DNA of 64,000 bases from an uncultured Bacilli bacterium (lineage in GTDB: Bacteria; Bacillota_I; Bacilli_A; RF39; UBA660): contig CAKOIN010000006.1 in assembly GCA_934086955.1 (NCBI GenBank), forward strand, positions 2,159-66,158, read 5' to 3'. Shown here in pieces: positions 4,690 through 55,650 of the stretch; the stretch's first letter is position 1; the number at the start of each line of letters is the position of its first letter. The position numbers were made by a program, and so were the translations under genes. Below the pieces are notes generated by a model. That model did not search any database, was not told where the DNA came from, and was given only the letters and a program-made list of their open reading frames with translations.

Positions 4690-7332
4690 CTATTTCTTTT
4701 TTCTTTTTATATATTTATACACTTCCATTACAAAAAGTACAGGTAAAGCCATTATAAATAATGTTAACAAATGTAATGGTGGAACATCATATGTTTGTAA
4801 GAAATTAGAAAGTATAGGAACTTCCATAACTAACATTTGCAACAAAATAGTTCCAACAATAACAATTAATATGAGTGGATTAGTTTTAAAACTGTTATGA
4901 AATACACTCTTACTTTCACTTCTACAATTAAGAACATGTATATTTTGCATGAATACCATTAAAGCAAGAACATAACCACGAGCATGAGCAATCTCAAATC
5001 TTAAAACATCAACTAATAGCCACCATACACCAAATACAATTATTCCGATAAATAAACCAGACAATAATATTTGAATAAGCATTTCTTTTTCAAATAAACT
5101 TTCAGTAGTACTTCTTGGTTTTTCTTTCATAATAGTGTCAGTTTCTCTTTCAAAAGATAAAGCAATATCTTGAAGTCCATCTGTAACCAAATTTAACCAT
5201 AAAAGTTGTATCGCAACTAAAGGAATTGGTAAATTAAATGCAATAGATAATACAAAGAATAATACTTCCGCAAAACCACAAGATAAAAGCATTATAGATA
5301 CTTTTCTAATATTAGAATAAGCATTTCTTCCTTCTTCAATACCAGCTACTATTGATGAAAAATTATCATCAATAATAATCATCTTAGCAGTTTCTTTTGC
5401 AACATCAGTACCACTTCCCATTGCAACACCAATATTAGCAATCTTAATCGCAGGTGCATCATTTACACCATCACCGGTAACCGCAACAAATTCACCTTGT
5501 CTTTGTAAAGATTCAACTATTTTTAATTTTTGAATAGGTGTCACTCTTGCAAAAACAGTTTTATCTTTAACAAAATTATCAAATTTTTCATTATCATCAA
5601 TATAAAAATCTAAATCACTACCAGTACATACTTCATCTTTATTACTTGCAATTTTAAGTTCTTTAGCAATTGCATAAGCAGTAAGAGCATGATCCCCAGT
5701 AATCATAAGAACTTTAATACCTGCATTATGACACTCTGTAACAGAAGCAGCAGCTTCCTTTCTAACTGGATCTATAAATCCAACTAAACCAATAAAATTT
5801 AATTTATTTAAATCTCTTTCATCATACTTTTCTTTTTCTTTTATTTCTTTAGAACATAAAGCAATAACTCTATATCCTTGTGATGCTAATTCATCATTTT
5901 GTTTAAGAATTTTTTCTTTATCAATTTTTTTCTTAACTCCATCAATATAACTATATGAACAAAAATTCAGTATCACTTCAACTGATCCTTTTGCTGTACA
6001 ATACATCTTATCGTCCATTTTAAAGAATACAGCACTATATTTTTTTAAAGATTCATATGGAATAACATCTATTTTTTTAAATTCAGTTTCATTAGTTTTT
6101 AGTTTTCTTGATAAAGCTAAAAATGCAATATCAATAGAATCACCAAACTTTTCCCATTTACCTTTTGATTTTTCAAGCATTGCTTCATTATTAACAAGCC
6201 CTAATATTGATAAATATTTAGCATTTTTAAGTTCAGAACCAGGTTCAGGTATAACTTTACCTACATCATTATATCCATTACCATCTATATTAAATAATTC
6301 CCCATTTGGAAGCATTATTTTTTTAGCAGTTTGTTCATTTACAGTAAGTGTACCAGTTTTATCACTCGCTATAACAGTACAACTTCCTAAACTTTCAACT
6401 GAATTAAGTTTTTTAACAATAACATTCCTTTTACTCATTTTATTAGAAGCTATTGTAAGAGCAAGTGTTAATGATAAAGGTAAACCTTCTGGCATTGCAG
6501 AAACACCAAGAGCTACAACAGATAAAAATATTTCGATTGGTTCATATTGTTTATATATAAGTACAATTGCTATTATTATAGATATAACAACAATCATCAT
6601 AGTAATTTGTTTTGAAAACTTTTCCATTCTAATAGTTAATGGTGATTTACTTTCAGTAGTAGTCGTAACCTTTTCAGCTATCTTACCGACCTCAGTATCA
6701 AGAGCTGTACCACACACAATAGCGAGAGCTCTACCAGTTAAAACAGAAGTGCCAGCATATAACATATTCTTTTTAGAAATATCACCTAAACTTGCTTCAC
6801 CTTCTTCTTTAACTACAGCTATACTTTCACCAGTAAGTATTGATTCATCAACAGTTAAATTATTAGAACTTATTATTCTAGCATCAGCAGATATTTTAGT
6901 GCCAGATTCAAGAACAATAACATCTCCTGGAACAAGAAGCGAAGAATCTATTTCAACATATTCATTATCTCTTATAACTTTAGCTTTAACTTTAATTAAA
7001 TTTTTAAGAGCTTCAGCATTCTTAGTAGCTCTATATTCTTGAATTGTAGACATTACAGCATCAATTAAAATAATAAATATAATAGCCACTGCATCAAGAG
7101 GTTCACCTGCAATAAAAGATAGTATTACTGCTACAATCATAACATAAATAATCGGATCCATAAAAGATTCAATAAACACTTTAAAAATACTTTTCTTCTT
7201 TTCCTTTGGAAGTTCATTATAACCATATTCTTTTAATCTTTTGTTAGCTTCTTTATTAGATAAACCATTTAAAGAAGAATTAAGTTTCTTAATAACCTTC
7301 TTAATATCAATATATTCAAAATCCCTTTTCAC
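4690..7332 (-). CDS. P-type Ca2+-transporting ATPase (P2 type)
   Basis: DKTGTLT phosphorylation motif, TGDGVNDAPA hinge, ten TM segments and a cation-ATPase N-terminus. Confidence 0.8.
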   Translation of the reverse strand: MKRDFEYIDIKKVIKKLNSSLNGLSNKEANKRLKEYGYNELPKEKKKSIFKVFIESFMDPIIYVMIVAVILSFIAGEPLDAVAIIFIILIDAVMSTIQEYRATKNAEALKNLIKVKAKVIRDNEYVEIDSSLLVPGDVIVLESGTKISADARIISSNNLTVDESILTGESIAVVKEEGEASLGDISKKNMLYAGTSVLTGRALAIVCGTALDTEVGKIAEKVTTTTESKSPLTIRMEKFSKQITMMIVVISIIIAIVLIYKQYEPIEIFLSVVALGVSAMPEGLPLSLTLALTIASNKMSKRNVIVKKLNSVESLGSCTVIASDKTGTLTVNEQTAKKIMLPNGELFNIDGNGYNDVGKVIPEPGSELKNAKYLSILGLVNNEAMLEKSKGKWEKFGDSIDIAFLALSRKLKTNETEFKKIDVIPYESLKKYSAVFFKMDDKMYCTAKGSVEVILNFCSYSYIDGVKKKIDKEKILKQNDELASQGYRVIALCSKEIKEKEKYDERDLNKLNFIGLVGFIDPVRKEAAASVTECHNAGIKVLMITGDHALTAYAIAKELKIASNKDEVCTGSDLDFYIDDNEKFDNFVKDKTVFARVTPIQKLKIVESLQRQGEFVAVTGDGVNDAPAIKIANIGVAMGSGTDVAKETAKMIIIDDNFSSIVAGIEEGRNAYSNIRKVSIMLLSCGFAEVLFFVLSIAFNLPIPLVAIQLLWLNLVTDGLQDIALSFERETDTIMKEKPRSTTESLFEKEMLIQILLSGLFIGIIVFGVWWLLVDVLRFEIAHARGYVLALMVFMQNIHVLNCRSESKSVFHNSFKTNPLILIVIVGTILLQMLVMEVPILSNFLQTYDVPPLHLLTLFIMALPVLFVMEVYKYIKRKKK

Positions 7333-20636: not shown

Positions 20637-21824
20637 TTATTTAGTTAATTTAGGACAAAAAGAACTATTTATATTATCCCTATAATTTAATAAAGCAATC
20701 TTAGATACTTCAATTACCCTATTAACATCAATATTTAAAAAATTAGCTATCACATTATCACTAAAATATTGATTATTTACAAATCCAAATTTTAAGATAA
20801 TGATAATTAGTTCTTCAAAAGAAAATCCATCAAACATATTTAGTATTTCTTCTGACTTAGATAATCTTACTGCTTCTTCATAAACCTTAGAAGTAATTAC
20901 ATTCTTTTTTAATAAACTTGAATTTTTCAATAATCTCTTTATTTTCCTAACAATACTATCATGATAATATTTTGTTTGTTCAGGTGTTAACTTACTTACA
21001 TAATTAGAAGAACCATCTCCATATTTAAGAAAGATTATTTCTTTATCATAATCACTTAATTTAAAAACAGCTTCGTCAACTTCTTCTTTTGAATAAGTTG
21101 AAAATGACTCATAAATAGAATTTTTCTCATTTTTCTTTTTCTTTTTCGATAAATTCACTTTTTTATTGCTAATATCAATATAACCCTTTTGACTCAATCT
21201 AACTCCCAAATCACTTACCAATTTAGATATTTTTCTAGATAAATAAGTATGTGTCATTGAAAAAATATTAGCAATTTCAAGTTGTGTATATCTTTCACTA
21301 TCAAAAAACCCAAAATACATTGTTAATATTTTTTTATCATCATCAGGTAACTTTTCAATCTCAGATAATATAGCATCTCTAAGTTCAAAATTAATAAAAC
21401 TTTCTTCCAAATCAAAACCATCAAAAATAATTTCACCTAGTTTAAAATCACTATCAGCACAAATAATTTTATCAAAGCTATCAACACAAAAATGATTTTC
21501 TTCTAATCTCAAAAAGCCTAATATTTCATTATCAATACATTTAGAAAGATATGTAGAAAACTTAATACCACGATTGATATCAAATGTTTCAATAGCATTT
21601 AATAAACCAATATTTCCAACTTGAACTAAATCATTCTTATCAAACTCTAAATTAAAATATTTTTTATTAACATAATAAATAACAAATTTAATATTATATC
21701 TCACAATAATATCTTTAGCCTCAATATCACCATTTTTATATCTTTTAAATAATTCAATAAACTCTTCATCAGATATATACTCAGGAAAATAATAATCATT
21801 CAAAAACAAATCTCTTTTTTTCAT
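20637..21824 (-). CDS. Sigma-70 family sigma factor with long C-terminal extension
   Basis: Region 2 (DLVQVGNIGLLNAIETFD...YLSKCIDNEILGFLR) and region 4 (YTQLEIANIFSMTHTYLSRKISK), plus about 165 extra residues containing a second region-4-like segment. Confidence 0.55.
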   Translation of the reverse strand: MKKRDLFLNDYYFPEYISDEEFIELFKRYKNGDIEAKDIIVRYNIKFVIYYVNKKYFNLEFDKNDLVQVGNIGLLNAIETFDINRGIKFSTYLSKCIDNEILGFLRLEENHFCVDSFDKIICADSDFKLGEIIFDGFDLEESFINFELRDAILSEIEKLPDDDKKILTMYFGFFDSERYTQLEIANIFSMTHTYLSRKISKLVSDLGVRLSQKGYIDISNKKVNLSKKKKKNEKNSIYESFSTYSKEEVDEAVFKLSDYDKEIIFLKYGDGSSNYVSKLTPEQTKYYHDSIVRKIKRLLKNSSLLKKNVITSKVYEEAVRLSKSEEILNMFDGFSFEELIIIILKFGFVNNQYFSDNVIANFLNIDVNRVIEVSKIALLNYRDNINSSFCPKLTK

Positions 21825-21939
21825 ATTTTCAACCCCTTATATGAATAAATTTATTTAAAGTCAAAATATAATACCACATTTTTTTAAAAAGTCAAATCAA
21901 TTAAAAAAGACACTCATTTTACAAAATTCAATGAATATG

Positions 21940-22400
21940 ATATAATGTAGATGTATGGAGCATTATGCTAGTCAAACATACCACTAGAAGATGGGGCTAA
22001 AAATCCATCAATTGTGTAAAAATGATACTTTATATATTTTGCTTCTTTCGCCCAGATTGGGGTGGATATATAATTTTAGATTTAAGGAAAAGATGTAATG
22101 GCATATATCCGAATCCTTATATCAAATCGAAGAACACGAACACACATGTCGTGAGTGAATTATTGGGATAGAAATTGAAAAATAATTTGCAAAAGCGAAT
22201 AAAAGTGATTTATGTTTGTTTGGGAAAACCTCTAGTATGCCTATATTATAAGGATTGAAGTGCGGACTAAGTGGTGATCGAGTGATCATTATGGCAACAA
22301 ATGGTTAATTCTTTTAAAGAGAAATCGCCCTAGGGTAACCGAAGGTAAGAATTAGAGAAATTCAACTCGACCAAAGCCGTAAAATTAATTTATAATATTC
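21940..22400 (+). ncRNA. Candidate large structured ncRNA (OLE-RNA-like)
   Basis: About 450 nt, ORF-free and clearly GC-enriched relative to the flanks. Many local helices (GGATATAT...ATATATCC, CCCTAGGG, GATCgagtGATC). Immediately followed by a roughly 20 kDa 4-TM protein, the arrangement known for ole-oapA. Boundaries are approximate. Confidence 0.3.
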
Positions 22401-22425
22401 CATACACAAAACCAAAGGGAGTTAA

Positions 22426-22950
22426 ATGAAAAAAGATAATTGGATAATAAAGGCATTTTTAATGACTTTTTTTATAGCACTAATTTTCAGTAGTGCTTCA
22501 AATTTTATAATTGCAAAATATAACAATACAATATTACTTATACTACTATGTATTTTATTTATTGGCATAGGAATATTATTTGATATAATTGGAACAGCAG
22601 TATTAACTGCAAATGAAGCATCATTTCATGCTAAAAGTTCTAAAAAAATAAAAGGTTCTAAAGAAGCTGTAAGATTAATAAAAAATTCAAGTACAATTGC
22701 AAGTATATGTAATGATGTTATTGGAGATATATGTGGAATAGTTAGTGGTTCAGTAGGAGCTATGCTTGCTATTAATATATCAGTAAAATTTGATTTATCA
22801 ACAATAATTGTAACATTATTAACAAGTTCAATAATATCTTCACTAACAGTTGGAGGTAAAGCAATTGGTAAAAAATATGCAATTAAAAAAAGCGATACAA
22901 TAATATTTGTAGTAGCAAAAATATTAAATAAATTAAAAATAGAGAAATAA
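22426..22950 (+). CDS. Four-TM small membrane protein, possible OapA (OLE-associated protein A)
   Basis: 174 aa with 4 predicted TM helices. Lies directly downstream of the structured non-coding segment. Confidence 0.3.
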   Translation: MKKDNWIIKAFLMTFFIALIFSSASNFIIAKYNNTILLILLCILFIGIGILFDIIGTAVLTANEASFHAKSSKKIKGSKEAVRLIKNSSTIASICNDVIGDICGIVSGSVGAMLAINISVKFDLSTIIVTLLTSSIISSLTVGGKAIGKKYAIKKSDTIIFVVAKILNKLKIEK

Positions 22951-22957
22951 CTTTTCT

Positions 22958-23209
22958 CTATTTTTTTTGATTTAATCTTTCAGTAAATAAATTACCAACA
23001 GTTTCTAATACTTGAACATTATCAATATCAACTAAGATAATATTACCATTTATATCTTTCTTACCTTCAACAATTATATAATTATTAGTTATGCCTTCTT
23101 TTTCATTATCTACTTGAAGCCCCATAAGATAATTTTTTCCTTCATATGACATTTCATCTAATACATAATATTCAAGGCCATTATCTAATGTTATTACTTT
23201 ATCTATCAC
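22958..23209 (-). CDS. DUF1292-like small acidic protein
   Basis: The pattern ITL.DNG.E..YVLDE...EGKNYL....D.E.EG...VEG..D.NGNIILVD resembles the YrzB/DUF1292 family. Confidence 0.4.
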   Translation of the reverse strand: MIDKVITLDNGLEYYVLDEMSYEGKNYLMGLQVDNEKEGITNNYIIVEGKKDINGNIILVDIDNVQVLETVGNLFTERLNQKK

Positions 23210-24828
23210 AATGTAGGTCCTCCCATTCCACTAACTAATTCACTAGCTGAAATCCAAGCTTGATCTTTTCCTGCTTTATCCATTACAGAAACTGCTACAC
23301 TACTTGGATCTATACCATTTGCAGCACAGAATTCTTCAATTGATAAACCGTTAGTATTTATAACTTGACCTATTGATCCATCTGGATTAACTGCGGCAAA
23401 TCTTCCAAAAATCGAATCACCATTTACATATTGAGATAATAATGGTTTAGTTTCAATTCCCATAACAGCTCTATCAGAACTAATATGACCAACACTTACA
23501 TTATAGTCTCCTACTTCACTACCTATTCTAATACCATCATACTGAGAAACTGGATCTACAGCTGAAGTTGGTTGAGGTGTAGTTACTGTTGGAGTTGGTT
23601 GAGGCGGAGTTACCGTTGGATTTGGATTAGTAATATTAGGTGCAGGTTCTGGATTTGGAGTTGGCTCTACTGCGGCTGGGGTTGCTGCATTATGAGCTTG
23701 AATCAAATTATGAACAGTACTTGCAACAGTAAGAGTTCCACCAGTAATAATCGCAGAATTAATCATCCAAGACATATCTCTTAGACCTTCTTCTGTCCTA
23801 AACTTATTCTTAACCCTATCAACTAAACCTTTTAATCCAGGTCTAGGTTCAACAACAGTATTTATTTTACTTTGCAATCCAAGTCGATTCAACTCAGCTA
23901 TTTCTTTTCTTCTTTTATTAATGAATTTGTTAGCTATACCACCTGCAAGTGACATAACACCTACACCAAGTGGACCAGCTGTAAAGAATACAGCAGCACC
24001 AAGTCCAATACCTGCTGCTACATGTAATATTGTTTTCCATGTAACTTTTGGCTTATTAGACTTAACTTTAGGTCGTTCTGGTTCATCCGGCTCTGGTTCT
24101 TCTGGACCTGGTCCATCTGGACCTTCAGGTGGGATTGGAGGAATTGGATCTCCTATATCTACAGGTCCATTACCGCCTGGACCTCCCGGGCCATCTGGAC
24201 CCTCAGGACCAGGTCCCTCTGGGCCAGGTCCATCAGGGACACCATTCCCAGGACCTTCAGGACCATCATGAGTTGGCTCAACAGGAGTTCTATCCACAGT
24301 CATATTCTTTGGTATACCACCATATTTAAGTTCTCTCATTCTTTGCATTATATGACTTTTTTCAACCATTAAATCATTAAGAGCTAATTCATTCTCTTCA
24401 ATTCTTTTTCTAGCATCTTCTTGTAATTTAGCTAATGATGCTGGCATCTCATGACCTTCAGCCATCTGTACACTAGCAATATTAGTATCCTTTTCAATAG
24501 CTTTTTCTAAATCTTTAATTTGTCTTGATACTTCTATTCTTCTTTTACCAAGTTCTAAATACTCAGCTTCCTTCTTTTCAATAATAACATTAAACTTATT
24601 AGCATTCTCATATGCTATATCAGTTATTCTATCAATTCTAGCTTTTTGTTCACTACTAAGTTCATTATCATTTTCAATTTGAAAAGCTTCATTTTTAACA
24701 TTATCAAAAATCTCAAATCTTTTTCTAAGTTCTTCAAGACCATAATATTCAATATCAAGTTCAGCCAAATCTTCTAATTCAATAGTTTCTTGCAAAACTT
24801 GTTCTAATCTATCCATTCTAACATTCAT
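23206..24828 (-). CDS. Membrane protein with coiled-coil N-domain, collagen-like Pro/Gly-rich linkers and a globular C-domain
   Basis: The GPEGPGNGVPDGPGPEGPGPEGPDGPGGPGG low-complexity tract is visible in the DNA as GGN/CCN repeats. There is one strong TM segment (ILHVAAGIGLGAAVFFTAGPLGVGV) and a second PT-rich linker. Confidence 0.4.
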   Translation of the reverse strand: MNVRMDRLEQVLQETIELEDLAELDIEYYGLEELRKRFEIFDNVKNEAFQIENDNELSSEQKARIDRITDIAYENANKFNVIIEKKEAEYLELGKRRIEVSRQIKDLEKAIEKDTNIASVQMAEGHEMPASLAKLQEDARKRIEENELALNDLMVEKSHIMQRMRELKYGGIPKNMTVDRTPVEPTHDGPEGPGNGVPDGPGPEGPGPEGPDGPGGPGGNGPVDIGDPIPPIPPEGPDGPGPEEPEPDEPERPKVKSNKPKVTWKTILHVAAGIGLGAAVFFTAGPLGVGVMSLAGGIANKFINKRRKEIAELNRLGLQSKINTVVEPRPGLKGLVDRVKNKFRTEEGLRDMSWMINSAIITGGTLTVASTVHNLIQAHNAATPAAVEPTPNPEPAPNITNPNPTVTPPQPTPTVTTPQPTSAVDPVSQYDGIRIGSEVGDYNVSVGHISSDRAVMGIETKPLLSQYVNGDSIFGRFAAVNPDGSIGQVINTNGLSIEEFCAANGIDPSSVAVSVMDKAGKDQAWISASELVSGMGGPTL

Positions 24829-24830
24829 TA

Positions 24831-25106
24831 TTAATCACCTTGCTTCTTTGAATTATTAATGGCTTCTATTTTCTTGTTCATGTTATCACTAAACACTTTT
24901 AAAACAATATCAAGTACCTCTTTATTTTTTTCTTCTACAAAACCAGTACCAACATCTTTAAAAACAACAAATTTATCAGTTGGCTCTTCTCCATCAAGCT
25001 TATTTGTAAAAAAGTAAGTAAGACCATTATACTCAGTTTTATCAATAGTAATATAGTCATTACCAGCTAATTCAAATATATCGTTTAATTTAACACTATA
25101 ATCCAT
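24831..25106 (-). CDS. Small DUF1292-like protein
   Basis: Same size and pattern class as 22958..23209. Lies at the head of the same minus-strand gene string. Confidence 0.3.
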   Translation of the reverse strand: MDYSVKLNDIFELAGNDYITIDKTEYNGLTYFFTNKLDGEEPTDKFVVFKDVGTGFVEEKNKEVLDIVLKVFSDNMNKKIEAINNSKKQGD

Positions 25107-27152: not shown

Positions 27153-27413
27153 ATGGAAAATGCAAGCATATTTAAAGAAGAAAAAGATCTTTACACTATT
27201 ATTGGAAAAAATATTAGATACTATAGAAAATTATACAGTCTCAATAAAAAAGAGATGACACAAGAAGCACTCGCAGAACTGGCTAATGTTTCTACATCTC
27301 TTATAGGAAACCTTGAAAGCAAAAAAACTACACAAGGTATAAGTATATATAATTTATATAAAATAAGTAAAATATTAAATGTACCTATTGAATATTTTTT
27401 TATTGATCGATAG
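27153..27413 (+). CDS. XRE-family HTH transcriptional regulator (paralog 1)
   Basis: Cro/C1-type HTH: MTQEALAELANVSTSLIGNLE...ISIYNLYKISKILNV. Confidence 0.6.
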   Translation: MENASIFKEEKDLYTIIGKNIRYYRKLYSLNKKEMTQEALAELANVSTSLIGNLESKKTTQGISIYNLYKISKILNVPIEYFFIDR

Positions 27414-27678
27414 TAATCTTTTCAAAGAATTTATCAATTGAAACTCCAAGTACAATAGATATTTTATAAAGTGATAATAAAGACAATCCTTCACTTCCTT
27501 TTGTACTTTCAAATTTTCTAATAAACTCTGGAGATAGACCAATATCAACAGCCAATTGTTCTTGTGTTATACCATTAATTTTTCTATATTTAATTACATT
27601 ATAAGCAATTGTTTCAATAATATTATCATCAAAATCAAAATTTCTTTTAAATTTAGTCATAAAATCACCTAAATACAT
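27400..27678 (-). CDS. XRE-family HTH transcriptional regulator (paralog 2)
   Basis: ITQEQLAVDIGLSPEFIRKFE...LSLLSLYKISIVLGV. Its 3' end overlaps paralog 1 by 14 nt. Confidence 0.6.
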   Translation of the reverse strand: MYLGDFMTKFKRNFDFDDNIIETIAYNVIKYRKINGITQEQLAVDIGLSPEFIRKFESTKGSEGLSLLSLYKISIVLGVSIDKFFEKITIDQ

Positions 27679-27759
27679 TTTATATTATTTAATAAATAAA
27701 TTATGTAATGTTACACTATACAAAATATCTATATTATTCTATAATTAAATTAGGTGAAA

Positions 27760-28004
27760 TTATGAATCAAGATAAGTTAAATAATATAATTGGTAAAAAT
27801 ATAAAAAAATATAGATTAGCTTATAAATATGAAAAAATAACTCAAGAAAAACTAGCAGAATTAATAAATGTTTCAGTTTCACTAATAAGTAGTTTAGAAA
27901 GTAATAAAACAAAGAAAGGAATAAGTATAAATAATTTATATAAAATTTCAATAGTCTTAAATGTTCCAATCAGTAAGTTTTTTGAGGAAGATAATGAAAA
28001 ATAA
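27760..28004 (+). CDS. XRE-family HTH transcriptional regulator (paralog 3)
   Basis: ITQEKLAELINVSVSLISSLE...ISINNLYKISIVLNV. The likely start is MNQDKL, preceded by AGGTGA. The ORF-track 5' extension was discounted. Confidence 0.55.
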
Positions 28005-28527
28005 AAATGAGATATTATTAAATGAATATATAATTAATAGTTCTGATTTATATGAATTAGTAAATAATAAAGATTTTGATCTTAAAACAAAATATCTAGA
28101 TTTAACTAAAAAAATAAATCCAAAAAGTAAACTAATTCATAAGAATAATATAACATTACTTGAACTAATTATATTTAATATAGATAATTATATTTCATTT
28201 TTAAAACAAAATCTAATGATTAATCAACTTGAAATAAGATATATAGCATACTTAACTATATATGAAAATAATTACCTATTTGAAGAAAAATATTATTATG
28301 ACAATATAGAATATTTTAATAACTTGTTTAAAAAAATATTAATGAGTAAATATAATAAAAATGTTAATATCTTGTTAAAATATAAAAATATCAATATATA
28401 TGATTATGATACACTATTAGAAAAAATAAACAAAAATAAAAATAGAGCATATATATATTTTGAAGATATAAATCAAAATAATGCTCTATATTATTTAAAT
28501 ATTTATGAATATAATGATTCTATTTAA
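27994..28527 (+). CDS. Hypothetical Asn/Tyr-rich protein overlapping the XRE paralog 3 stop
   Basis: ATG at about 27994 after GAGGAAG. The overlap with the upstream XRE gene suggests an operon. No recognisable domain. Confidence 0.3.
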   Translation: MKNKNEILLNEYIINSSDLYELVNNKDFDLKTKYLDLTKKINPKSKLIHKNNITLLELIIFNIDNYISFLKQNLMINQLEIRYIAYLTIYENNYLFEEKYYYDNIEYFNNLFKKILMSKYNKNVNILLKYKNINIYDYDTLLEKINKNKNRAYIYFEDINQNNALYYLNIYEYNDSI

Positions 28528-29599
28528 CAAATATATCATTAGCACTCTTATAACAGAAAGTAACTCTATTAGTTCCTTTCTTTTTTTCTTTAATTAAATA
28601 ACCTTTCTCAACTAATTTATTTAATACTTTATTAACAGAATTAATATGTAGATTACAATCATTAACAATATCAGCAGTAGTAAAAACAATTCTTCTAAGA
28701 ATTTCTGGATATACCTTATAAATAGTACTACCACCTATTTCAGTTTTAAATTCTTCTAAATCTCTTTTATATAATTTATTTAACTTTTTAATCTTTTTAA
28801 TATTTAAATTACATTGTTCAATAATACATTGAAGCATAAATTTAACAAAATGCATAACATCATTATCTTCTGTACTAAGCATAGTAAAATATGTATTTCT
28901 TAAATTATCCATACTTTCACTAATAAATAATATTGGAGGTTCATTCTTATAAAATGAATATTGTATTGGAATAATTATTCTACCCATCTTACCATTATTA
29001 GACATATATGGATGTATCTTTTCAAACTGATAATGAGTTAAAATAGTACTAATAAATGATTCATCAGTTTTAGAATTAATATAATCACATAAATTCTTCA
29101 TAAGTGAATTAAGCTCAGTATGAACTGGTGGTATAAACGATACACTAGATCCAGCTATACCTGGTTTTAATAAATAAGTCTGAGTTTTTCTCAAATGCCC
29201 ACTACCCTTAGTAGAATTATCTTTTTTAAGACCAGTTAACAATGTTTTATTGATTTTATTAAATACATCTACTGAAAAACCATTTTTATTACTAGCTGTC
29301 AAACCAACTAATAAACTTTTTTTAATATTAGTATATAAAATAGAAGTATTACTTTTATTCATATATGTCATATAAAACATATCTTCTTTGTTAACTTTAG
29401 CATTATCAATCTTAAATGAATAAAATATATCATTAATAAATGCATTTTCTAAAAAACACTTATAATCATAAGACATATTCTTTAAATACCCTTTATATTC
29501 TCCATAAGCTTCTTTAGCTTCACATAATAAATTTAAAATATCATTTGGTATATTAATTTCATAAGGTAATTTCTTAGCTTTATATGGTTCCATAATCAT
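28520..29599 (-). CDS. Fic/Doc-family protein with divergent Fic motif and C-terminal winged-helix
   Basis: HPYMSNNGKMGR aligns to HPFx[DE]GNGRxxR with His retained. C-terminal segment (LVEKGYLIKEKKKGTNRVTF) resembles a wHTH. Confidence 0.5.
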   Translation of the reverse strand: MIMEPYKAKKLPYEINIPNDILNLLCEAKEAYGEYKGYLKNMSYDYKCFLENAFINDIFYSFKIDNAKVNKEDMFYMTYMNKSNTSILYTNIKKSLLVGLTASNKNGFSVDVFNKINKTLLTGLKKDNSTKGSGHLRKTQTYLLKPGIAGSSVSFIPPVHTELNSLMKNLCDYINSKTDESFISTILTHYQFEKIHPYMSNNGKMGRIIIPIQYSFYKNEPPILFISESMDNLRNTYFTMLSTEDNDVMHFVKFMLQCIIEQCNLNIKKIKKLNKLYKRDLEEFKTEIGGSTIYKVYPEILRRIVFTTADIVNDCNLHINSVNKVLNKLVEKGYLIKEKKKGTNRVTFCYKSANDIFVK

Positions 29600-29670: not shown

Positions 29671-30048
29671 TTAATAAACTTTAGGAAAATCCATTAAACC
29701 TTCCGTCTTTCCTTCTCTCCAATATATTTTGTTATCTTTAACTTCAAAACTATAAGTTACTTTATATTTATAATCATCATCACTTTTTTGATAATAAAAT
29801 ACTAGTTCAGACATACCATCATTATTACTCTCAAATACAAAAGATGTATCATCATGACTTACTTCTTTTAAACTATCGTTATTTATTTCATAAGTCCAAT
29901 CTTTACTTTCATCAAGTTCTTTATAATCAATAGTGACAGTATCTTCAAATACACTTAATAGTTTATCATCAAGTTTTGGTTCATAAAACATAATACCAAC
30001 AAGTCCTACAATAGTTAAAACAAATATAATTACAAATCTCATTAACAC
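29671..30048 (-). CDS. Small secreted or membrane-anchored hypothetical protein
   Basis: N-terminal signal-anchor. No domain recognised. Confidence 0.3.
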   Translation of the reverse strand: MLMRFVIIFVLTIVGLVGIMFYEPKLDDKLLSVFEDTVTIDYKELDESKDWTYEINNDSLKEVSHDDTSFVFESNNDGMSELVFYYQKSDDDYKYKVTYSFEVKDNKIYWREGKTEGLMDFPKVY

Positions 30049-30570
30049 TCCTTAATAAACAAAAAGCAACCAGTCCTGATAAAACTTGATTGCTTCGAGT
30101 TTCGAAAAAACTAATTATGAATCATTTATTTTATAATAATAATTATAAAATAAATACTTCTAAATATTATCAGTATTTAGCATAATTACTTATCATTTTG
30201 AGTTTTTCTTTCTCAACGATATATCATTTGTCCTTAGTAGATAAGTATTCTATTTCTTAAATTAATAAGACTATTTATTATTTATATATAATAAGTAATA
30301 TTAATTTATAAATAAGATAGATACATAAATTTATAATAAATTAATATTATAAATAAACATATAATTGAAATATAAATTTTAATATACCAAATATAAATAA
30401 TGAAATAAATATAGAATTTTTTCACTAAAATAATTTAGATTATATTTTATTATATAATATATAAATAATTAAATTTAAATACCACTAATAATTTATATAA
30501 CCAATTATCTATTGGACAATATTATTATATGAATATTATTATCAAATGTCAATACTTTTTTAAAAAAAAT

Positions 30571-30598: not shown

Positions 30599-32104
30599 TT
30601 ATTTATCATGTAATAAATTACTTTTGTCACTATAAGATGTATGCAATAATTTAAAGCTCTTTTCACTTAAAGGTTTATTTAAAAATTCCTTATATAAAAT
30701 CTTTAATTCTTTATTATCATGAGCACATCTAATAGCTCTATTTGAATCTATTGACTCGATTCCTTTAGATCTTTCTTCTCTTATTTTATCAAGTTTAGGT
30801 ATTGCACAAAGTGGTTGACCACCTCCGCCAATACATCCGCCTTTACAATTCATTACTTCTATAAAATGAAATTTTTTATAATAATCATTTTCAAGTAGTT
30901 TTTCCAAATTTTCCATTTGTTGAACAACTGCAACTCTAAGTCTATACTTGCCTATCATAACAGTAGCTTCTTTTATTCCTTCAAATCCACGAAGTTCGTC
31001 AAAAACAAGTTCATCTTTTTTCATATTATGTTTTGTCATAATTCTATATAGTGTTCTTATGACTGATTCACAAACACCACCAGAATTTCCAAATAAAACT
31101 CCGCCTCCACTACTTTCACCCATCATTTTATCAAATGGAGTATCTGATAAATTAGCTAGATTTATATCATCTTCTTTTAACATTATTCCAAGTTCACTTG
31201 TTGTGATTACATAATCTATATTCGGAGTATATTCTCTTGCTTCCATCTTTTTAGATGTACAAGGTGTTATAGCCACCGTAACTATCTTAGATGGATCAAT
31301 GCCTCTTTTCTCACAAAAATATGATTTTATAATTGCACACTGCATTCCAATTGGACTTTTACAAGTTGATAAGTTAGATAATATTTCAGGATGATACACT
31401 TCAGCATATTTTACCCAAGCAGGACAACAACTAGTAAATTGTGGTATTGGACCTTTATTTGTTAATCTTGCAGCAAACTCAGCAACTTCCTCTAAAATAG
31501 TTAAATCAGCTCCAAATGCTGTATCAAAAACATAATCAAATCCAGATTTCTTTAAAGCTGTAACTATCTTACCTTCTGCATTTACACCAGCTTCCATATT
31601 AAAACATTCACCAATAGCAACTCTAACAGCTGGAGCTATAATTGCTATAACAATTTTATCATTAGAATTAATAATATCTTTTACATCTCTAAATGAATAT
31701 TTTGGTATCATCGCACCAGTTGGACAATTCAAGATACATTGACCGCAACCAATACAAATAGGTTCCCTACACTTATTTAAATCATATCTTAAATTAACAA
31801 TATTTTCACAAGTCTTCTTACATTGACCACAATTAATACATTTTTCAGGTATTCTACCAATTGCATGATTATTAGAACTAACCCTTACTTTTTTATCTTC
31901 TTCTTTATCATTGATTATTTTATCCACTTTAACTTCTAATGCTGCATCAACCACTGAATCAATAATTGCATCTAATGCACTAGAACTAGCAGTTTCATCT
32001 CTTTCTTCAAACTCCCTGGCACCACACATAGGGCAAACATAGTCATCAGATATTTTATCTACCGATACTAAATATCCACATAACTTACAAATATATTTTC
32101 CCAT
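30599..32104 (-). CDS. hydA: [FeFe]-hydrogenase catalytic subunit with N-terminal rubredoxin-like zinc ribbon and 2x[4Fe-4S] ferredoxin domain
   Basis: H-cluster motifs TSCCPAW, ITPCTSKK and MNCKGGCIGGGGQP. Two CxxCxxCxxxCP ferredoxin motifs. N-terminal CKLCGY...CPMCG. Confidence 0.85.
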   Translation of the reverse strand: MGKYICKLCGYLVSVDKISDDYVCPMCGAREFEERDETASSSALDAIIDSVVDAALEVKVDKIINDKEEDKKVRVSSNNHAIGRIPEKCINCGQCKKTCENIVNLRYDLNKCREPICIGCGQCILNCPTGAMIPKYSFRDVKDIINSNDKIVIAIIAPAVRVAIGECFNMEAGVNAEGKIVTALKKSGFDYVFDTAFGADLTILEEVAEFAARLTNKGPIPQFTSCCPAWVKYAEVYHPEILSNLSTCKSPIGMQCAIIKSYFCEKRGIDPSKIVTVAITPCTSKKMEAREYTPNIDYVITTSELGIMLKEDDINLANLSDTPFDKMMGESSGGGVLFGNSGGVCESVIRTLYRIMTKHNMKKDELVFDELRGFEGIKEATVMIGKYRLRVAVVQQMENLEKLLENDYYKKFHFIEVMNCKGGCIGGGGQPLCAIPKLDKIREERSKGIESIDSNRAIRCAHDNKELKILYKEFLNKPLSEKSFKLLHTSYSDKSNLLHDK

Positions 32105-44973: not shown

Positions 44974-45051
44974 AATATTATCCTTTTTCCCTACTATATA
45001 TTTATTTTAAAGCATTTTAAAGTTTTTATCAAGTTAATAACAAGATATTTA

Positions 45052-45762
45052 CTATTTATTTTTATATGTTTTTAAAATAGCACTATAACTTCTAGGATAC
45101 TTTTTATCAGTTATCTTATTTTTTTTGTATATTGGTATGCATCTATATGCATTTGTAATAGGTAATTCATATTCTATTCTATTTTCATGGGATAAGTTAA
45201 ATTTATTAATTATTTGATTAGCAACCTTTATTTCCTCATCAATATTTGATTTTAAAGGCATTAATAAACCATCAACTTTTAATAATGAAGTAGATAATTC
45301 AATAATAATTGGTAAAGCTGTAACAGCTCTACAAGTAACTATATCAAAGATTTCTCTATTTTTAACTGCATATTCTTCAACTCTACCATTTACTATACTA
45401 ACATTATCTAAATTTAATTCTTGTTTAATTAAATTAAGAAACAAACATTTTTTAGCATTTGACTCAATTAATGTAACATCAATATTATTAAAAACTATCG
45501 CTATTACCATACCTGGGAAACCAGCACCAGTTCCAAAATCTAATAATGTCTTTTTATCGTTTAAATAACCAGTTTTATTTAAACACAATGAATCATAAAA
45601 ATGTAATAGAAATACATCTTCATAAGAAGTGATAGTTGTCATATTAAATTTTTTATTATATTCAACTAATAACTCATAATATTTGTATAGTTTATCATAT
45701 AATTCATCAGTTATTTCAATATTAATATTTTTACAATATTCTTTAAATTTTTCTTTATTCAT
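45052..45762 (-). CDS. rsmG: 16S rRNA (guanine527-N7)-methyltransferase
   Basis: GidB family, SAM motif LDFGTGAGFPG. Confidence 0.85.
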   Translation of the reverse strand: MNKEKFKEYCKNINIEITDELYDKLYKYYELLVEYNKKFNMTTITSYEDVFLLHFYDSLCLNKTGYLNDKKTLLDFGTGAGFPGMVIAIVFNNIDVTLIESNAKKCLFLNLIKQELNLDNVSIVNGRVEEYAVKNREIFDIVTCRAVTALPIIIELSTSLLKVDGLLMPLKSNIDEEIKVANQIINKFNLSHENRIEYELPITNAYRCIPIYKKNKITDKKYPRSYSAILKTYKNK

Positions 45763-47617
45763 TGTTATATTCCTTTTTTAAATATACAAGTAACATCGTT
45801 ATATCAGATGGATTAACACCACTTATTCTTGATGCTTGACCTATTGTAATTGGTCTTACTTTATCAAATTTTTGTCTTGCTTCTGTAGCTATATTAGGTA
45901 CTTTATTATAATCAATATCAGTAGGTATTTGCTTATCTTCAAGTTTTAACATCTTATTAACCTCAGCTCTTGTTTTATCAATGTATCCTTTATATTTAAT
46001 TTCGGTTTCAACCATCAATGCAACATTTTCATCATACTCTTTATTCATATAATTTAATAAATCATATATTGATATTTCAGGTCTTTTAACTAAATCTTTT
46101 AATGATATTCTTCCATAAATATTAGAAGAATTTAATGAACTTAAAAATTCATTCACCTCTTTTTTAGGAGTTAAATATGTTACCTCTAAATATTTTTCTA
46201 AATCCTTCATGTCATTTAAAGTTTTCTTATATATATCATATTTTTCATCATTTATTAAACCTAAATTTCTTCCATATTCAGTTAATCTTATCATAGAATT
46301 ATCATGTCTTAATAATAATCTAAACTCAGCTCTTGAAGTTAATAATCTATATGGTTCTGTAATTCCTTTATTAATTAAATCATCTATTAACACACCAATA
46401 TATGCTTCATTTCTTTTTAAAATAAATGGTTCTTTCCCTTGAATTTTAAGTACTGCATTTATACCAGCTATTAAACCTTGTGCTGCTGCTTCTTCATATC
46501 CACTAGTTCCATTAATTTGTCCAGCAGTATATAAATTTTCTAATACTTTATTTTCTAATGTTAATTTTAATTGCAATGGATCAATTGCATCATATTCAAT
46601 AGCATAACCATATTTAGTTATAACAACATTATGAAGACCATCCATAGTTTTTAATAATTTTTCTTGTATATCATGAGGCATAGTAGTAGAAAATCCACCT
46701 ACATAATATTCAATATCATCACTTCTTTCAGGTTCTAAAAATATTTGATGTCTATCTTTATCATTAAATTTAACAACTTTATCCTCAATTGAAGGACAAT
46801 ATCTAGGACCAATCCCCTTTATCATTCCACTATATAAAGCACATTTATCAAGGCTATCCATAATTATTTTATGAGTTTCTTTATTTGTATAAGTCAAATA
46901 ACAAGGTCTTTGATTATTGATATCATAACTTGCTTTATAAAAATTACTAAATGTAAGTGGTATTTTATCTCCTTCTTCAACTTGTACTTCATCAAAATTA
47001 ATACTACTTTTTAGTATTCTAGGAGGTGTTCCAGTTTTAAGTCTGATAAGTTTAATTCCATTTCTAGCTAATGAATCACTTAAAAACATAGAATTTTTCT
47101 CACCGTGTGGGCCACCTTTATGTTTTTCATGACCACACATTATATCAGAATTTAAATATGTACCAGTTGTTAATATAACAGCTTTACTTATAATTTTTTC
47201 ATTATCCTCTGTTAATACTCCATACACTTTATTATCTTTAACTAATAATTCTTTAACAATAGCTTCTTTTAATTCTAAATTTTTAGTTTCTTTTAATGTT
47301 TTTAACATCTCTTTTGGATAGTTAACTTTGCATCCTTGACATCTAAGAGATCTAACCCCTGGTCCTTTTTTAACATTTAACATTTTTATTTGTAAATGTG
47401 TTTTATCAGCACAATAACCCATTTCACCACCAAGTGCATCTATCTCTCTTACAACTATTCCTTTTGCACTACCACCTATTGATGGATTACAAGGCATATC
47501 AGCTATATTTTTAAAATTTATTGTAATAAGAAGAGTTTTTTCACCCATACGAGCAGAAGCAAGTGCAGCCTCACATCCAGCATGACCCCCTCCAACAACA
47601 ATTACATCATATTCCAT
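45755..47617 (-). CDS. mnmG: tRNA uridine-5-carboxymethylaminomethyl modification enzyme MnmG (GidA)
   Basis: FAD-binding VIVVGGGHAGCEAA, full-length GidA. Confidence 0.9.
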   Translation of the reverse strand: MEYDVIVVGGGHAGCEAALASARMGEKTLLITINFKNIADMPCNPSIGGSAKGIVVREIDALGGEMGYCADKTHLQIKMLNVKKGPGVRSLRCQGCKVNYPKEMLKTLKETKNLELKEAIVKELLVKDNKVYGVLTEDNEKIISKAVILTTGTYLNSDIMCGHEKHKGGPHGEKNSMFLSDSLARNGIKLIRLKTGTPPRILKSSINFDEVQVEEGDKIPLTFSNFYKASYDINNQRPCYLTYTNKETHKIIMDSLDKCALYSGMIKGIGPRYCPSIEDKVVKFNDKDRHQIFLEPERSDDIEYYVGGFSTTMPHDIQEKLLKTMDGLHNVVITKYGYAIEYDAIDPLQLKLTLENKVLENLYTAGQINGTSGYEEAAAQGLIAGINAVLKIQGKEPFILKRNEAYIGVLIDDLINKGITEPYRLLTSRAEFRLLLRHDNSMIRLTEYGRNLGLINDEKYDIYKKTLNDMKDLEKYLEVTYLTPKKEVNEFLSSLNSSNIYGRISLKDLVKRPEISIYDLLNYMNKEYDENVALMVETEIKYKGYIDKTRAEVNKMLKLEDKQIPTDIDYNKVPNIATEARQKFDKVRPITIGQASRISGVNPSDITMLLVYLKKEYNNE

Positions 47618-47626
47618 TTATATCAT

Positions 47627-49000: not shown

Positions 49001-49050
49001 GCTAGATTATAGCACAAACAAATAAATAAGTCCATTAAAAAAGAGTATTT

Positions 49051-49668
49051 CTACTCTTCAGTTTCACTATATTTTATTACAACACATCTATTAGGATCCT
49101 CTCCTTCACTTTCAGTTATAATAAATTTAAAATTTTGTAATGCTTCATGAACAATTTTTCTTTCATAAGAATTCATTGGATCAAGTTTAACATCAACTTT
49201 TGTTTTTAATACATCTTTTGCTATTTTCTTAACTTTTTTCTCTAAGAAATAGTTTTGTTTTTCTTTATATCCTTCAACATCAACTGATACATTAATATAT
49301 ATATCTACTGCTGTAAAAATAGCTTGTCTTACATAAGTTTGGATTGAGTCTAATATGTGACCATTTTTTCCTATTAATAATGAATTATTTTTAGAATGTA
49401 ATTGATATTTAATCTTACCATCTCTAATCATAGTTTCAATATTAGCATTAATATCAAGTGATGATAACAATTCCTTCAAAACATCCTTTCCAACTTCAGC
49501 AATATCACTAAGTTTAACAACTTCTAATGTATATTTTTTACCACTGAAAAGTCCACCTTTTTCTTCATATGTTTTTGTTATAACATCTTCTTCTTTAACA
49601 TTTAATTCATTTAATGCTTTTTCTAATAACCCATCTTCACTCTTTGCTTGAAACTTATACTTTTCCAT
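49051..49668 (-). CDS. jag: Jag/KhpB RNA-binding protein (KH + R3H)
   Basis: Jag_N, KH and R3H arrangement. Downstream of yidC, as in the spoIIIJ-jag operon. Confidence 0.75.
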   Translation of the reverse strand: MEKYKFQAKSEDGLLEKALNELNVKEEDVITKTYEEKGGLFSGKKYTLEVVKLSDIAEVGKDVLKELLSSLDINANIETMIRDGKIKYQLHSKNNSLLIGKNGHILDSIQTYVRQAIFTAVDIYINVSVDVEGYKEKQNYFLEKKVKKIAKDVLKTKVDVKLDPMNSYERKIVHEALQNFKFIITESEGEDPNRCVVIKYSETEE

Positions 49669-49671
49669 TTT

Positions 49672-50909: not shown

Positions 50910-50965
50910 ATAACTCCTCTAAGAAATATTATAATAAAAAAATTACTTATTTAAAAGTAATTTAG

Positions 50966-51088
50966 TTATTTTGCTAATTCTTTTCTTCCTTTTGCTCTTC
51001 TAGATTTTAATACATTAGTTCCTTTTCTTGCTAAAAATCCAGATGTTTTACTTTTCTTTCTATTATTAGGTTGAAACGTTCTTTTCAT
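50966..51088 (-). CDS. rpmH: 50S ribosomal protein L34
   Basis: Hand-translated minus-strand [43 protein letters not shown]. It is not in the ORF track because it is below 60 aa. Coordinates are accurate to about 1 nt. Confidence 0.85.
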
Positions 51089-51150
51089 AATTTAATCCTC
51101 CATTCCTTCTTTGCTTAATAGATTATAAACTATTGATAATAAAAAGTCAA

Positions 51151-55622: not shown

Positions 55623-55650
55623 ATTTCAAAAAAATAATTTTTTTACTTTT

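What the first reader, a model, noticed from the sequence alone, without database searches (positions are those of the whole stretch)
21940..22950. Candidate OLE-like large structured ncRNA followed by an OapA-like 4-TM protein
Between a sigma-factor gene and a 174-aa four-TM protein lies a roughly 450-nt ORF-free segment that is conspicuously GC-richer than its surroundings and full of local palindromes and stems. A large structured RNA immediately upstream of a roughly 20 kDa four-TM protein is the hallmark arrangement of ole-oapA in anaerobic Firmicutes. RNase P RNA, tmRNA and T-box signatures were looked for and not seen. If it is not OLE it is still an unexplained large non-coding element.
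Basis: inference. Interest (0 to 1): 0.7.

Follow-up and report, generated by a model that had tools for sequence, protein, structure and literature searches.

The report
Compact OLE RNA with its OapA partner
The non-coding stretch is a real but unusually small copy of the known bacterial OLE RNA, followed by the gene for its membrane partner OapA; this is a known type of system, seen here in stripped-down form in an uncultured gut bacterium.

The parts
21918..21946 (+). Promoter of the ole-oapA unit: TTTACA, 17-nt spacer, TG-extended TATAAT
   Evidence: Matches 11 of 12 consensus positions with TG before the -10. The same -35/-10 arrangement, ending 6 nt before the first base of P1, is found in all 10 compact-clade loci. 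The transcription start near G21953 is inferred.
21953..22405 (+). OLE RNA, compact form, about 453 nt from the 5' strand of P1 to the 3' strand of P1 (the Rfam match spans 21939-22419)
   Evidence: RF01071, 219.4 bits, E 1.9e-60, full model; structure recovered independently, with 39 of 127 pairs changed on both sides; z = -3.4. The true 3' end is not determined.
21953..21985 (+). 5' strands of the long-range helices: P1 (21953-21959), P2 (21964-21971, holds CUAG), P3 (21973-21979) and P3.1 (21982-21985). Partners: 22399-22405, 22232-22239, 22212-22218 and 22204-22207
   Evidence: RNAalifold on 9 relatives, coordinates, and 100%, 100%, 91.9% and 100% of cells paired with double changes in each helix. 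The Rfam model does not annotate these helices. P3 plus P3.1 gives 11 bp, against the published 'typically 12 bp' (PMC12265935). The stem names are my mapping onto the published scheme.
21990..22009 (+). P4 hairpin with the invariant A-rich loop GCUAAAAA (a published RNA-RNA dimer contact)
   Evidence: helix 5. The role of the loop is taken from PMC12265935.
22013..22017 (+). J4/5 segment UGUGU pairing with ACACA at 22142-22146 (after P6). This resembles the published 'k-turn 1b' pairing of J4a/5 with J6/7
   Evidence: helix 6: 100% paired, 2 of 5 pairs with double changes. Equating it with k-turn 1b is an inference from PMC12054373.
22030..22073 (+). P5/P5.1 long hairpin with loop GCCCA (kissing-loop partner of the P6.1 loop in the published dimer)
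   Evidence: helix 7. CGCCCAG is constant in 8 of the 9 aligned sequences and the GCCCA core in all 9.
22084..22118 (+). P6/P6.1 hairpin: AAGGA/UCCUU base (resembles a Shine-Dalgarno/anti-Shine-Dalgarno pair) and loop AAUGGCAU
   Evidence: helices 8 and 9. P6 is the published bS21 site (PMC12054373). Whether bS21 binds here is not tested.
22119..22148 (+). Short linker where full-length OLE carries P7 and P8 (about 80 model positions reduced to about 20 nt)
   Evidence: model inserts [44] reduced to 8 and [36] reduced to 12; the P6.1 loop to P9 distance is 47 nt here against 85-230 nt in most OLEs.
22149..22198 (+). Truncated P9. The conserved base (GUGAGUG ... UGCAAAAG) and internal loop (GGGAU / UGAAA) are kept. 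The distal arm is replaced by a variable 3-8-nt cap (GAAA here)
   Evidence: [50] reduced to 4; cap sequence not conserved; helices 10 and 11; P9 span 28-36 nt against 69-90 nt, and no GGCC palindrome.
22222..22230 (+). P10 mini-hairpin GGGAAAACC. The small hairpin that follows it in the Rfam model (positions 424-434, probably P11) is absent
22243..22398 (+). 3' domain (P12 to P15), essentially complete. It includes the invariant core AGUGCGGACUAAGUGGUGAUCGAGU, the P13 hairpin (22285-22305, loop GGCAAC) and GACCAAAGCCGUAAAAUU
   Evidence: helices 13-21. P12.2/P13 is the published OapB site (PMC7936274, PMC12265935).
22415..22421 (+). Ribosome-binding site AAGGGAG, 4 nt before the ATG
   Evidence: Read from the sequence. 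An equivalent AAGGAG or AAGGGAG is present in relatives. No terminator lies between the RNA and the gene.
22426..22950 (+). oapA: a 174-aa membrane protein with four hydrophobic segments and a CNNM-like fold
22940..22968 (+). Terminator: 8-bp AT-rich hairpin (UAGAGAAA / UUUCUCUA) followed by 8 U. It overlaps the stop codon, is preceded by an A-run and is shared with the convergent gene
   Evidence: Read from the sequence. It falls below the scan's requirement of 3 G-C pairs. A hairpin plus T-run follows oapA in most clade loci.

Best explanation
This is a two-gene ole-oapA operon. A conserved sigma-70-type promoter drives a compact OLE RNA of about 453 nt and, on the same transcript, the gene for OapA, a small CNNM-like membrane protein with four transmembrane segments.

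By analogy with Halalkalibacterium halodurans and the Clostridium cryo-EM structures, OapA should tether the RNA to the cell membrane. The RNA should dimerise through its P4 loop and its P5.1/P6.1 loops. The particle should help the cell cope with stresses such as excess Mg2+, alcohols, cold or poor carbon sources. One published idea is that the RNA plays the regulatory role that CBS and CorC domains play in the all-protein relatives MpfA/CorB/CorC.

Shown here: identity of the RNA, its fold and covariation, the promoter and operon layout, and OapA homology and fold. Inferred from the family: membrane association, dimerisation, and the stress or Mg2+ role. Unknown for the whole family: the biochemical activity.

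This copy is a natural minimal version. It lacks P7, P8, the distal P9 arm with its kissing loop, the small hairpin after P10, and the J4/5 palindrome.
For: - RNA identity: Rfam OLE scores 219.4 bits against a gathering score of 50, E 1.9e-60, over model positions 1-616. No competing family appears.
- Relatives: their gaps also score 202-223 bits as OLE.
- Structure: an independent consensus fold recovers P1-P6, P9, P10 and P12-P15. 98.5% of cells pair, against 35-43% when partners are slid. 39 pairs change on both sides, against 2-4 when slid and 11 +/- 2.3 when shuffled, with 0 of 500 shuffles reaching the observed value.
- Operon layout: the promoter is conserved in position in 10 of 10 clade loci, there is no internal terminator, and a terminator follows oapA.
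- Dimer-contact loops: those of P4, P5.1 and P6.1 are essentially constant in the clade.
Against: - Nothing here shows expression, RNA processing, membrane localisation, dimerisation or any phenotype.
- The fourth published dimer contact (the P9 loop) and the J4/5 palindrome, which I take to be the P4a OapA site, are missing. The assembly may therefore differ from the cryo-EM models.
- The partner proteins OapB and OapC were not found among the size-matched candidates scanned in the window, and the literature reports them largely absent from RF39-type genomes. The complex is probably simpler here.
- The Pfam CNNM hit is below threshold (24.7 bits against 28.4).
Confidence: 0.95

Rival explanations
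1. The structured region works mainly in cis, as a long regulatory 5' leader (a riboswitch-like or protein-binding element) that controls translation or stability of the oapA mRNA, and not as a stable, separately acting RNA.
For: In this clade the RNA starts at the promoter and runs into oapA. Only 14-30 nt and a ribosome-binding site lie in between, with no terminator. So it is physically the 5' UTR of oapA.
Against: It is homologous to OLE over the full model. In other species OLE sits inside long operons and accumulates as a discrete, abundant RNA that OapA binds at the membrane (PMC12265935, PMC9723947). P1 pairs the 5' and 3' ends into a closed domain that stops 20 nt before the start codon and does not sequester the ribosome-binding site. 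In L058 a spacer of about 100 nt with its own promoter-like site separates the two. No Rfam cis-regulatory family matches.
Confidence: 0.04
2. It is a decaying, non-functional remnant of OLE in a genome undergoing reduction, and the deletions are steps towards loss.
For: About 130 nt of the usual RNA are missing, the bit score is less than half that of classical OLEs (219 against about 500), and the host lineage appears to have a small genome.
Against: The same compact architecture is kept across species whose OapA proteins differ by up to 47%. Compensatory changes keep 98.5% of cells paired. The conserved core sequences are invariant. The promoter and an intact oapA are always retained. Drift would not preserve these features.
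Confidence: 0.01
3. The region is a decayed or unannotated protein-coding gene, and the 49-aa + ORF or the 55-aa - ORF is real.
For: Two short ORFs exist. The first ~40 codons of the minus-strand ORF (about two-thirds of its length) look conserved in relatives.
Against: The + ORF has stops in every relative. The - ORF is conserved only where it overlaps invariant OLE bases. Its C-terminal half carries stops and frameshifts, and variable columns show no third-position excess (12, 20 and 15 for positions 1, 2 and 3). Variation follows the base-pairing pattern instead.
Confidence: 0.005

Closest known systems
Full-length OLE RNA (Rfam RF01071; H. halodurans, C. acetobutylicum, C. botulinum)
   Same: The conserved sequence blocks and helices are the same: P1-P6, the base of P9, P10 and P12-P15. 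The P4 A-rich loop and the GCCCA / UGGC loops are kept. oapA lies immediately downstream on the same strand.
   Different: This copy is about 453 nt instead of 577-620. It has no P7, no P8, no distal P9 arm or palindromic GGCC loop, no small hairpin after P10, and no CAUCGAUG palindrome in J4/5. It sits in a stand-alone two-gene operon with its own promoter, not inside a long multi-gene operon (operon context from PMC12265935). The host is a mesophilic gut anaerobe.
OLE 'variant 2' of Fernando and Breaker 2024 (common in the RF39 clade; entirely lacks P7 and P8)
   Same: P7 and P8 are absent. The host is an uncultured gut lineage with a probably reduced genome, labelled Bacilli, Tenericutes or Mycoplasmatota. 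OapB and OapC are reported as largely absent from that clade.
   Different: A sampled RNA that fits the published description (L032, 531 nt, 277 bits) still has the full P9 arm with a UUGGCCAA loop. The window's clade has lost that as well and scores lower, 202-223 bits. Their lower cut-off for variant 2 was 235 bits, but with a different covariance model, so the scores are not directly comparable.
OLE 'variant 1' (common in the TANB77 clade; shortened P7, P8 and P9, and the OapB site at the tip of P13 often lost)
   Same: P9 is shortened.
   Different: Here P7 and P8 are absent, not just shortened, and the P13 hairpin with its GGYRAC loop is intact.
MpfA / CorB / CorC (CNNM-family Mg2+ transporters)
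   Different: The protein has 174 aa with an extra N-terminal helix and no CBS pair or CorC_HlyC domain. It clusters by sequence with OapA, not MpfA. It is always paired with the RNA.

Membership tests
OLE RNA (Rfam RF01071) | Covariance-model score above the curated gathering score, matching the whole model | tested here: met
   219.4 bits against 50, E 1.9e-60, model positions 1-616, not truncated. It is the only significant family in a permissive scan.
OLE RNA (Rfam RF01071) | Signature conserved sequence blocks: CUAGUCA, CUAAAAAUCC, GCCCA, AAUGGCAU, GUGAGUG...UGCAAAAG, GGAAAAC, AGUGCGGACUAAGUGGU and GACCnAAGCCGnAAAAUU | tested here: met
   All are present in the window and constant or nearly so in the nine-sequence clade alignment.
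OLE RNA (Rfam RF01071) | Multi-helix secondary structure maintained by compensatory change | tested here: met
   127 pairs, 98.5% of cells paired, 39 pairs with double changes against 2-4 in slid controls, and 0 of 500 shuffles as high. Caveat: the tested structure was predicted from the same alignment, although it agrees with the independent Rfam consensus.
OLE RNA (Rfam RF01071) | oapA gene immediately downstream on the same strand | tested here: met
   The 174-aa OapA orthologue starts 21 nt after P1.
OLE RNA (Rfam RF01071) | Host in Bacillota, typically an anaerobe or extremophile | tested here: met
   The closest genomes are MAGs labelled Bacilli, Mycoplasmatota, Tenericutes or Erysipelotrichaceae, from gut and digester samples. 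The window encodes an Fe-only hydrogenase. The exact GTDB order was not determined.
OLE RNA (Rfam RF01071) | Full-length architecture: P7, P8, a long P9 with a palindromic loop, and the small hairpin after P10 | tested here: not met
   Model inserts are reduced from 44 to 8, 36 to 12 and 50 to 4, and model positions 424-434 are deleted. The spacing measures agree. This places the RNA among the reduced variants. It does not exclude it from the family.
OLE RNA (Rfam RF01071) | Stable abundant transcript, membrane localisation through OapA, RNA homodimer | not testable with these tools
   This needs RNA-seq or Northern blots, fractionation or imaging, and SEC-MALS or cryo-EM.
OLE variant 2 (Fernando and Breaker 2024) | Entire absence of P7 and P8 | tested here: met
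OLE variant 2 (Fernando and Breaker 2024) | Bit score of 235-310 with the authors' covariance model | tested here: inconclusive
   The score is 219 bits with the Rfam model, which is a different model.
OLE variant 2 (Fernando and Breaker 2024) | Host in the RF39 order (GTDB) | not testable with these tools
   Only NCBI-style labels are available ('uncultured Bacilli bacterium' and similar). They are compatible with RF39 but do not prove it.
OapA | Small membrane protein (about 20 kDa) with four transmembrane helices | tested here: met
   174 aa with four hydrophobic segments. The AF2 model is all-helical with long helices 5-32, 35-61, 88-122 and 126-154.
OapA | Sequence orthology to the gene that follows ole in established OLE hosts | tested here: met
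   30-48% identity over the full length to the ole-adjacent gene in Lederbergia, Alkaliphilus, Caloramator, Alicyclobacillus, Thermincola, Pontibacillus and Virgibacillus, with shared invariant blocks. A direct comparison with H. halodurans WP_010898928.1 was not possible because that sequence was not held.
OapA | CNNM/DUF21-like transmembrane fold without CBS or CorC domains | tested here: met
OapA | Conserved cluster of basic residues on the face proposed to bind the RNA | tested here: met
   The loop at residues 61-92 has 7 K/R, including the conserved K--G-K and R/K-N positions, and the C-terminal tail has 8 K/R. The cytoplasmic orientation is inferred.
OapA | Binds OLE RNA cooperatively and brings it to the membrane | not testable with these tools
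   This needs a biochemical or imaging assay.
MpfA/CorB/CorC Mg2+ transporters | [quoted passage not shown] | tested here: not met
   Only a sub-threshold CNNM match was found, and the 174-aa protein has no CBS or CorC_HlyC domain. It is therefore not a member, although the membrane fold is shared.

The most novel reading that the evidence does not exclude
The window's clade may represent a distinct, previously unclassified 'minimal OLE' of about 450 nt. It would have lost P7, P8, the entire distal P9 arch with its kissing loop, the small hairpin after P10 and the J4/5 palindrome. It keeps P1-P6, the base of P9 and the whole 3' domain, and is expressed with OapA alone from a dedicated promoter.

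If that is so, the P9-P9 dimer contact and the proposed P4a OapA site are dispensable. The functional core of this enigmatic RNA would be narrowed to what remains. That would give a smaller and simpler target for structural and reconstitution work.
Probability: 0.3. Interest if true: 0.45.

Novelty: new member of a known kind. Interest (0 to 1): 0.3.

Why it matters
OLE is among the largest and best-conserved bacterial non-coding RNAs whose biochemical function is still unknown. Recent cryo-EM work suggests it may even span the membrane. This locus adds nothing categorically new, because Rfam recognises it and shortened OLE variants in reduced-genome gut bacteria are already published.

Its value is comparative. 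A lineage that keeps the RNA and OapA under selection, while discarding P7, P8, the P9 arch, a small hairpin and the J4/5 palindrome, shows which parts are dispensable. In this window OapB and OapC were also not found. What remains is a compact two-component system that would be easier to reconstitute or solve than the 600-nt versions. It also shows that OLE is not restricted to extremophiles.

Tried and rejected
- Other RNA families: a permissive scan of 21825-22430 against all Rfam families found only OLE, plus one chance snoRNA hit at E 0.13.
- Coding potential of the two short ORFs inside the gap: rejected.
- Solved structures by sequence: none at E <= 1. NCBIfam: no family for the protein.
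- OapB, OapC (L7Ae-type) and MpfA among size-matched ORFs of the window: none found. The hits were DcuC, a Clp-type AAA protein, a histidine kinase, an EPSP-synthase/MurA-family enzyme, MnmE, DnaA, RnpA, HTH proteins, Fic, hydrogenase, SSB and S6. A 64-kb window cannot show that these genes are absent from the genome.
- Sigma factor as a functional neighbour: rejected, because it is an insertion specific to this species.
- Short AT-rich palindromes (CAAUUG / AUUAAU) at the 3' edge of P4 as a substitute OapA site: they sit in different registers in different relatives, and in AT-rich sequence they may be chance. I did not pursue this further.
- Supplement of Fernando and Breaker 2024: only figure legends are held, so I could not see whether their variant 2 consensus also truncates P9.
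- The regex classification of P7/P8 and P9 status is approximate. A few loci (L019, L043, L050, L067, L087) are probably misplaced by secondary motif matches.
- Two paper look-ups failed because the search terms were too short.

Full report
**1. The observation**

The gap between the minus-strand sigma-factor gene (20637-21824) and the plus-strand 174-aa ORF (22426-22950) is 601 nt long. It holds only two short ORFs. The sigma gene carries Pfam Sigma70_r2 and resembles SigK/SigE in NCBIfam.

The central 453 nt (21953-22405) are 33.3% G+C. The window as a whole is 25.4% and the flanking genes are 22-23%. Only 3% of equal-sized windows are as GC-rich. This segment folds 18 kcal/mol below the mean of its dinucleotide shuffles, with z = -3.4 and 0 of 100 shuffles as stable.

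**2. Identity of the RNA**

A scan of the whole window against Rfam gives OLE (RF01071) at 21939-22419 on the plus strand. The score is 219.4 bits against a gathering score of 50, E = 1.9e-60, and model positions 1-616 are all covered. A permissive scan of just this region against all 4227 families finds nothing else of note. The first 14 aligned bases are in fact the -10 region of the promoter.

The RNA proper is delimited by a 7-bp helix, GUAUGGA (21953-21959) with UCCAUAC (22399-22405). I equate this helix with the published P1.

**3. Transcription unit**

A strong promoter (TTTACA, 17 nt, TG-n-TATAAT; 21918-21946) ends 6 nt before P1. The same arrangement is found at the same distance in all ten loci of the clade. 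No terminator lies between the RNA and the ORF. A ribosome-binding site (AAGGGAG, 22415-22421) precedes the ATG. An AT-rich hairpin with eight U (22940-22968) follows the stop codon.

The unit is therefore promoter, ole, oapA, terminator. The transcription start and the 3' end of the mature RNA are inferred, not shown.

**4. The protein**

- Homologues: the 174-aa protein has thousands of them. The closest come from gut metagenomes and from MAGs labelled Bacilli, Tenericutes or Mycoplasmatota.
- Position: I scanned reference genomes for the OLE core motif AGTGNGNACTNAGTGGT and obtained 120 loci. The window protein matches the gene directly downstream of the motif in about 90 of them. Identity is 30-48% over the full length in classical hosts such as Lederbergia, Alkaliphilus, Caloramator, Alicyclobacillus, Thermincola, Pontibacillus and Virgibacillus.
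- Motifs: it keeps every conserved block of that alignment, namely GI-FD-IG, E--FHA, K--G-K, N-------CNDVIGDICGIVSG and LTVGGKAIGK.
- Topology: it has four hydrophobic segments, a basic loop (7 K/R in residues 61-92) and a basic tail.

The protein is an OapA orthologue. It is not an MpfA/CorB/CorC transporter, because it has no CBS or CorC_HlyC domains.

**5. Relatives and covariation**

Contigs carrying the identical protein come from gut metagenomes and share the gene order. Relatives with 74-84% identical OapA show the order argS, ygjV, a gap of about 550 nt, oapA, bipA. Their gaps score 202-216 bits as OLE.

Nine RNAs of the clade align at 83% column identity. RNAalifold, which knows nothing of the Rfam model, recovers P4, P5/5.1, P6/6.1, P9, P10 and the 3' domain. 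It also finds long-range helices that the Rfam model does not annotate:

- P1.
- P2 (UAUGCUAG / CUAGUAUG).
- P3 (CAAACAU / AUGUUUG) and P3.1 (CACU / AGUG).
- A helix joining J4/5 (UGUGU) to the segment after P6 (ACACA), which resembles the published 'k-turn 1b' pairing (PMC12054373).

On this structure 98.5% of cells pair, against 35-43% when partners are slid by 1-3 columns. 39 of 127 pairs show changes on both sides, against 2-4 when slid and 11.0 +/- 2.3 when shuffled, and 0 of 500 shuffles reach the observed values. The structure was derived from the same alignment, which inflates the contrast somewhat. It does, however, coincide with the independent Rfam consensus.

The short ORFs in the gap are not conserved as coding.

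**6. How this copy differs from typical OLE RNAs**

Measured between conserved anchors, the clade's RNAs span 421-425 nt. L058 spans 438 nt, L038 spans 486 nt, and all other sampled OLEs span 514-616 nt.

| Group | Rfam score (bits) |
|---|---|
| Classical hosts | about 500 |
| L036, L043, L066, L019 | 360-393 |
| L038, L032, L121 | 260-306 |
| Window clade and L058 | 202-223 |

The model-anchored alignments show what is missing:

- L036 lacks only the small hairpin at model positions 424-434.
- L032 lacks P7 and P8 but keeps the full P9 arm with a UUGGCCAA loop. That matches the published description of 'variant 2'.
- The window clade lacks P7, P8, that small hairpin, and also the distal P9 arm. 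In the window 50 model positions are replaced by a 4-nt GAAA cap, and the cap sequence varies freely among relatives.

A rough classification of the sampled loci finds all four combinations of P7/P8 and distal-P9 presence. The double loss is found only in the window's clade. The CAUCGAUG palindrome of J4/5, or its AUCGAU core, is present in most OLEs but absent from the whole clade. I take that palindrome to be the 'P4a' OapA site of the literature, and that step is an inference.

Retained features are:

- the P4 A-rich loop;
- the GCCCA loop of P5.1 and the AAUGGCAU loop of P6.1, so three of the four published dimer contacts remain (PMC12265935);
- an 11-bp P3 plus P3.1;
- the SD/anti-SD-like P6, the published bS21 site;
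- the base and internal loop of P9;
- P13 with its GGYRAC loop, the published OapB site;
- the invariant 3' core.

**7. Comparison with the literature**

Fernando and Breaker (2024, PMC11332333) searched GTDB and defined three classes with their own covariance model: full-length OLE (>= 390 bits), variant 1 (310-390 bits; shorter P7-P9; common in TANB77) and variant 2 (235-310 bits; no P7 or P8; common in RF39). They noted that these reduced-genome gut lineages largely lack OapB and OapC.

The window's RNA fits this picture and lies at its small extreme. I could not decide whether its exact architecture is included in their variant 2. Their figure and alignments were not available, and bit scores from different models are not comparable. 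No other paper in the library links OLE to these lineages.

**8. Host and context**

The window is chromosomal and close to the replication origin. It carries dnaA, dnaN, gyrB, gyrA, rnpA, mnmE and mnmG. It is very AT-rich and encodes an Fe-only hydrogenase.

The closest reference genome (89% OapA identity) is a Hadza-gut MAG labelled 'uncultured Bacilli bacterium'. Close relatives have contigs of about 1.4 Mb, which is consistent with small genomes.

The sigma-factor gene next to ole is found only in this species. The DUF1292, 540-aa and 91-aa genes after oapA are shared only with the closest relative. Neither is part of the conserved system.

**9. Mechanism**

- Shown here: a conserved, covarying OLE-family RNA, co-transcribed with an OapA orthologue that has a CNNM-like fold.
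- Inferred from work on H. halodurans and Clostridium: OapA anchors the RNA at the membrane. The RNA dimerises. The particle supports tolerance to Mg2+, alcohols, cold and poor carbon sources. The RNA may substitute for the regulatory domains of MpfA-type transporters (PMC12265935, PMC11332333, PMC10898510).
- Unknown for the whole family: the biochemical activity of OLE.

**10. Verdict**

This is a new member of a known kind, of modest interest as a natural minimal OLE. Interest is 0.3. The most novel reading that the evidence does not exclude is a distinct, unclassified minimal architecture that narrows the functional core. I give it a probability of about 0.3 and an interest of about 0.45 if true.

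Noticed in passing
window 30160-30252 (-): A PGK RNA motif (Rfam RF03040, 82 bits) lies between the Fe-only hydrogenase gene (30599-32104) and a 125-aa ORF with no Pfam match (29671-30048). The same motif is present in relative L105 at 6528-6619.
   Followed up: no
window 62687-62783 (+): Bacterial small SRP RNA (Rfam RF00169, 61 bits).
   Followed up: no
window 20637-21824 (-): A 395-aa sigma-70-family protein. Its first ~205 residues resemble the sporulation sigma factors SigK/SigE, and an extension of about 190 aa has no match. The gene is inserted between ygjV and ole in this species only. It is absent from L091 and all other clade loci.
   Followed up: partly
window 22958-25106 (-): A block of three genes lies between oapA and bipA: DUF1292 (83 aa), a 540-aa protein with a GC-rich Pro/Gly-rich repeat region (up to 56% G+C in a 25% genome) and two or more hydrophobic stretches, and a 91-aa gene. 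It is shared only with the closest relative L091. The large protein is 538 or 540 aa in different metagenome contigs.
   Followed up: partly
window 45000-62000: This is the replication-origin neighbourhood (mnmG, mnmE, rnpA, dnaA, dnaN, gyrB, gyrA). The ole-oapA unit lies about 30 kb from dnaA.
   Followed up: no
window 22122-22289 (-): A 55-aa ORF antisense to OLE keeps about 40 'conserved' codons across relatives, purely because it overlaps invariant RNA bases. This is a possible trap for gene callers.
   Followed up: yes
window 27153-29599: Three small HTH_3 genes in alternating orientation, followed by a Fic-domain gene. Similar HTH genes sit beside bipA in relatives L005, L007 and L009.
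   Followed up: no
L043, L092, L104, L087, L125: Complete OLE plus oapA pairs occur on contigs of MAGs labelled Muribaculaceae, Actinomycetota and Deltaproteobacteria. They are probably binning errors, as Fernando and Breaker suggested for their 24 non-Bacillota hits.
   Followed up: no
L058:930-1045: In this more distant compact OLE, a spacer of about 100 nt with its own promoter-like TTGACC...TATAAT separates the RNA from oapA. In the rest of the clade the two are tightly coupled.
   Followed up: no
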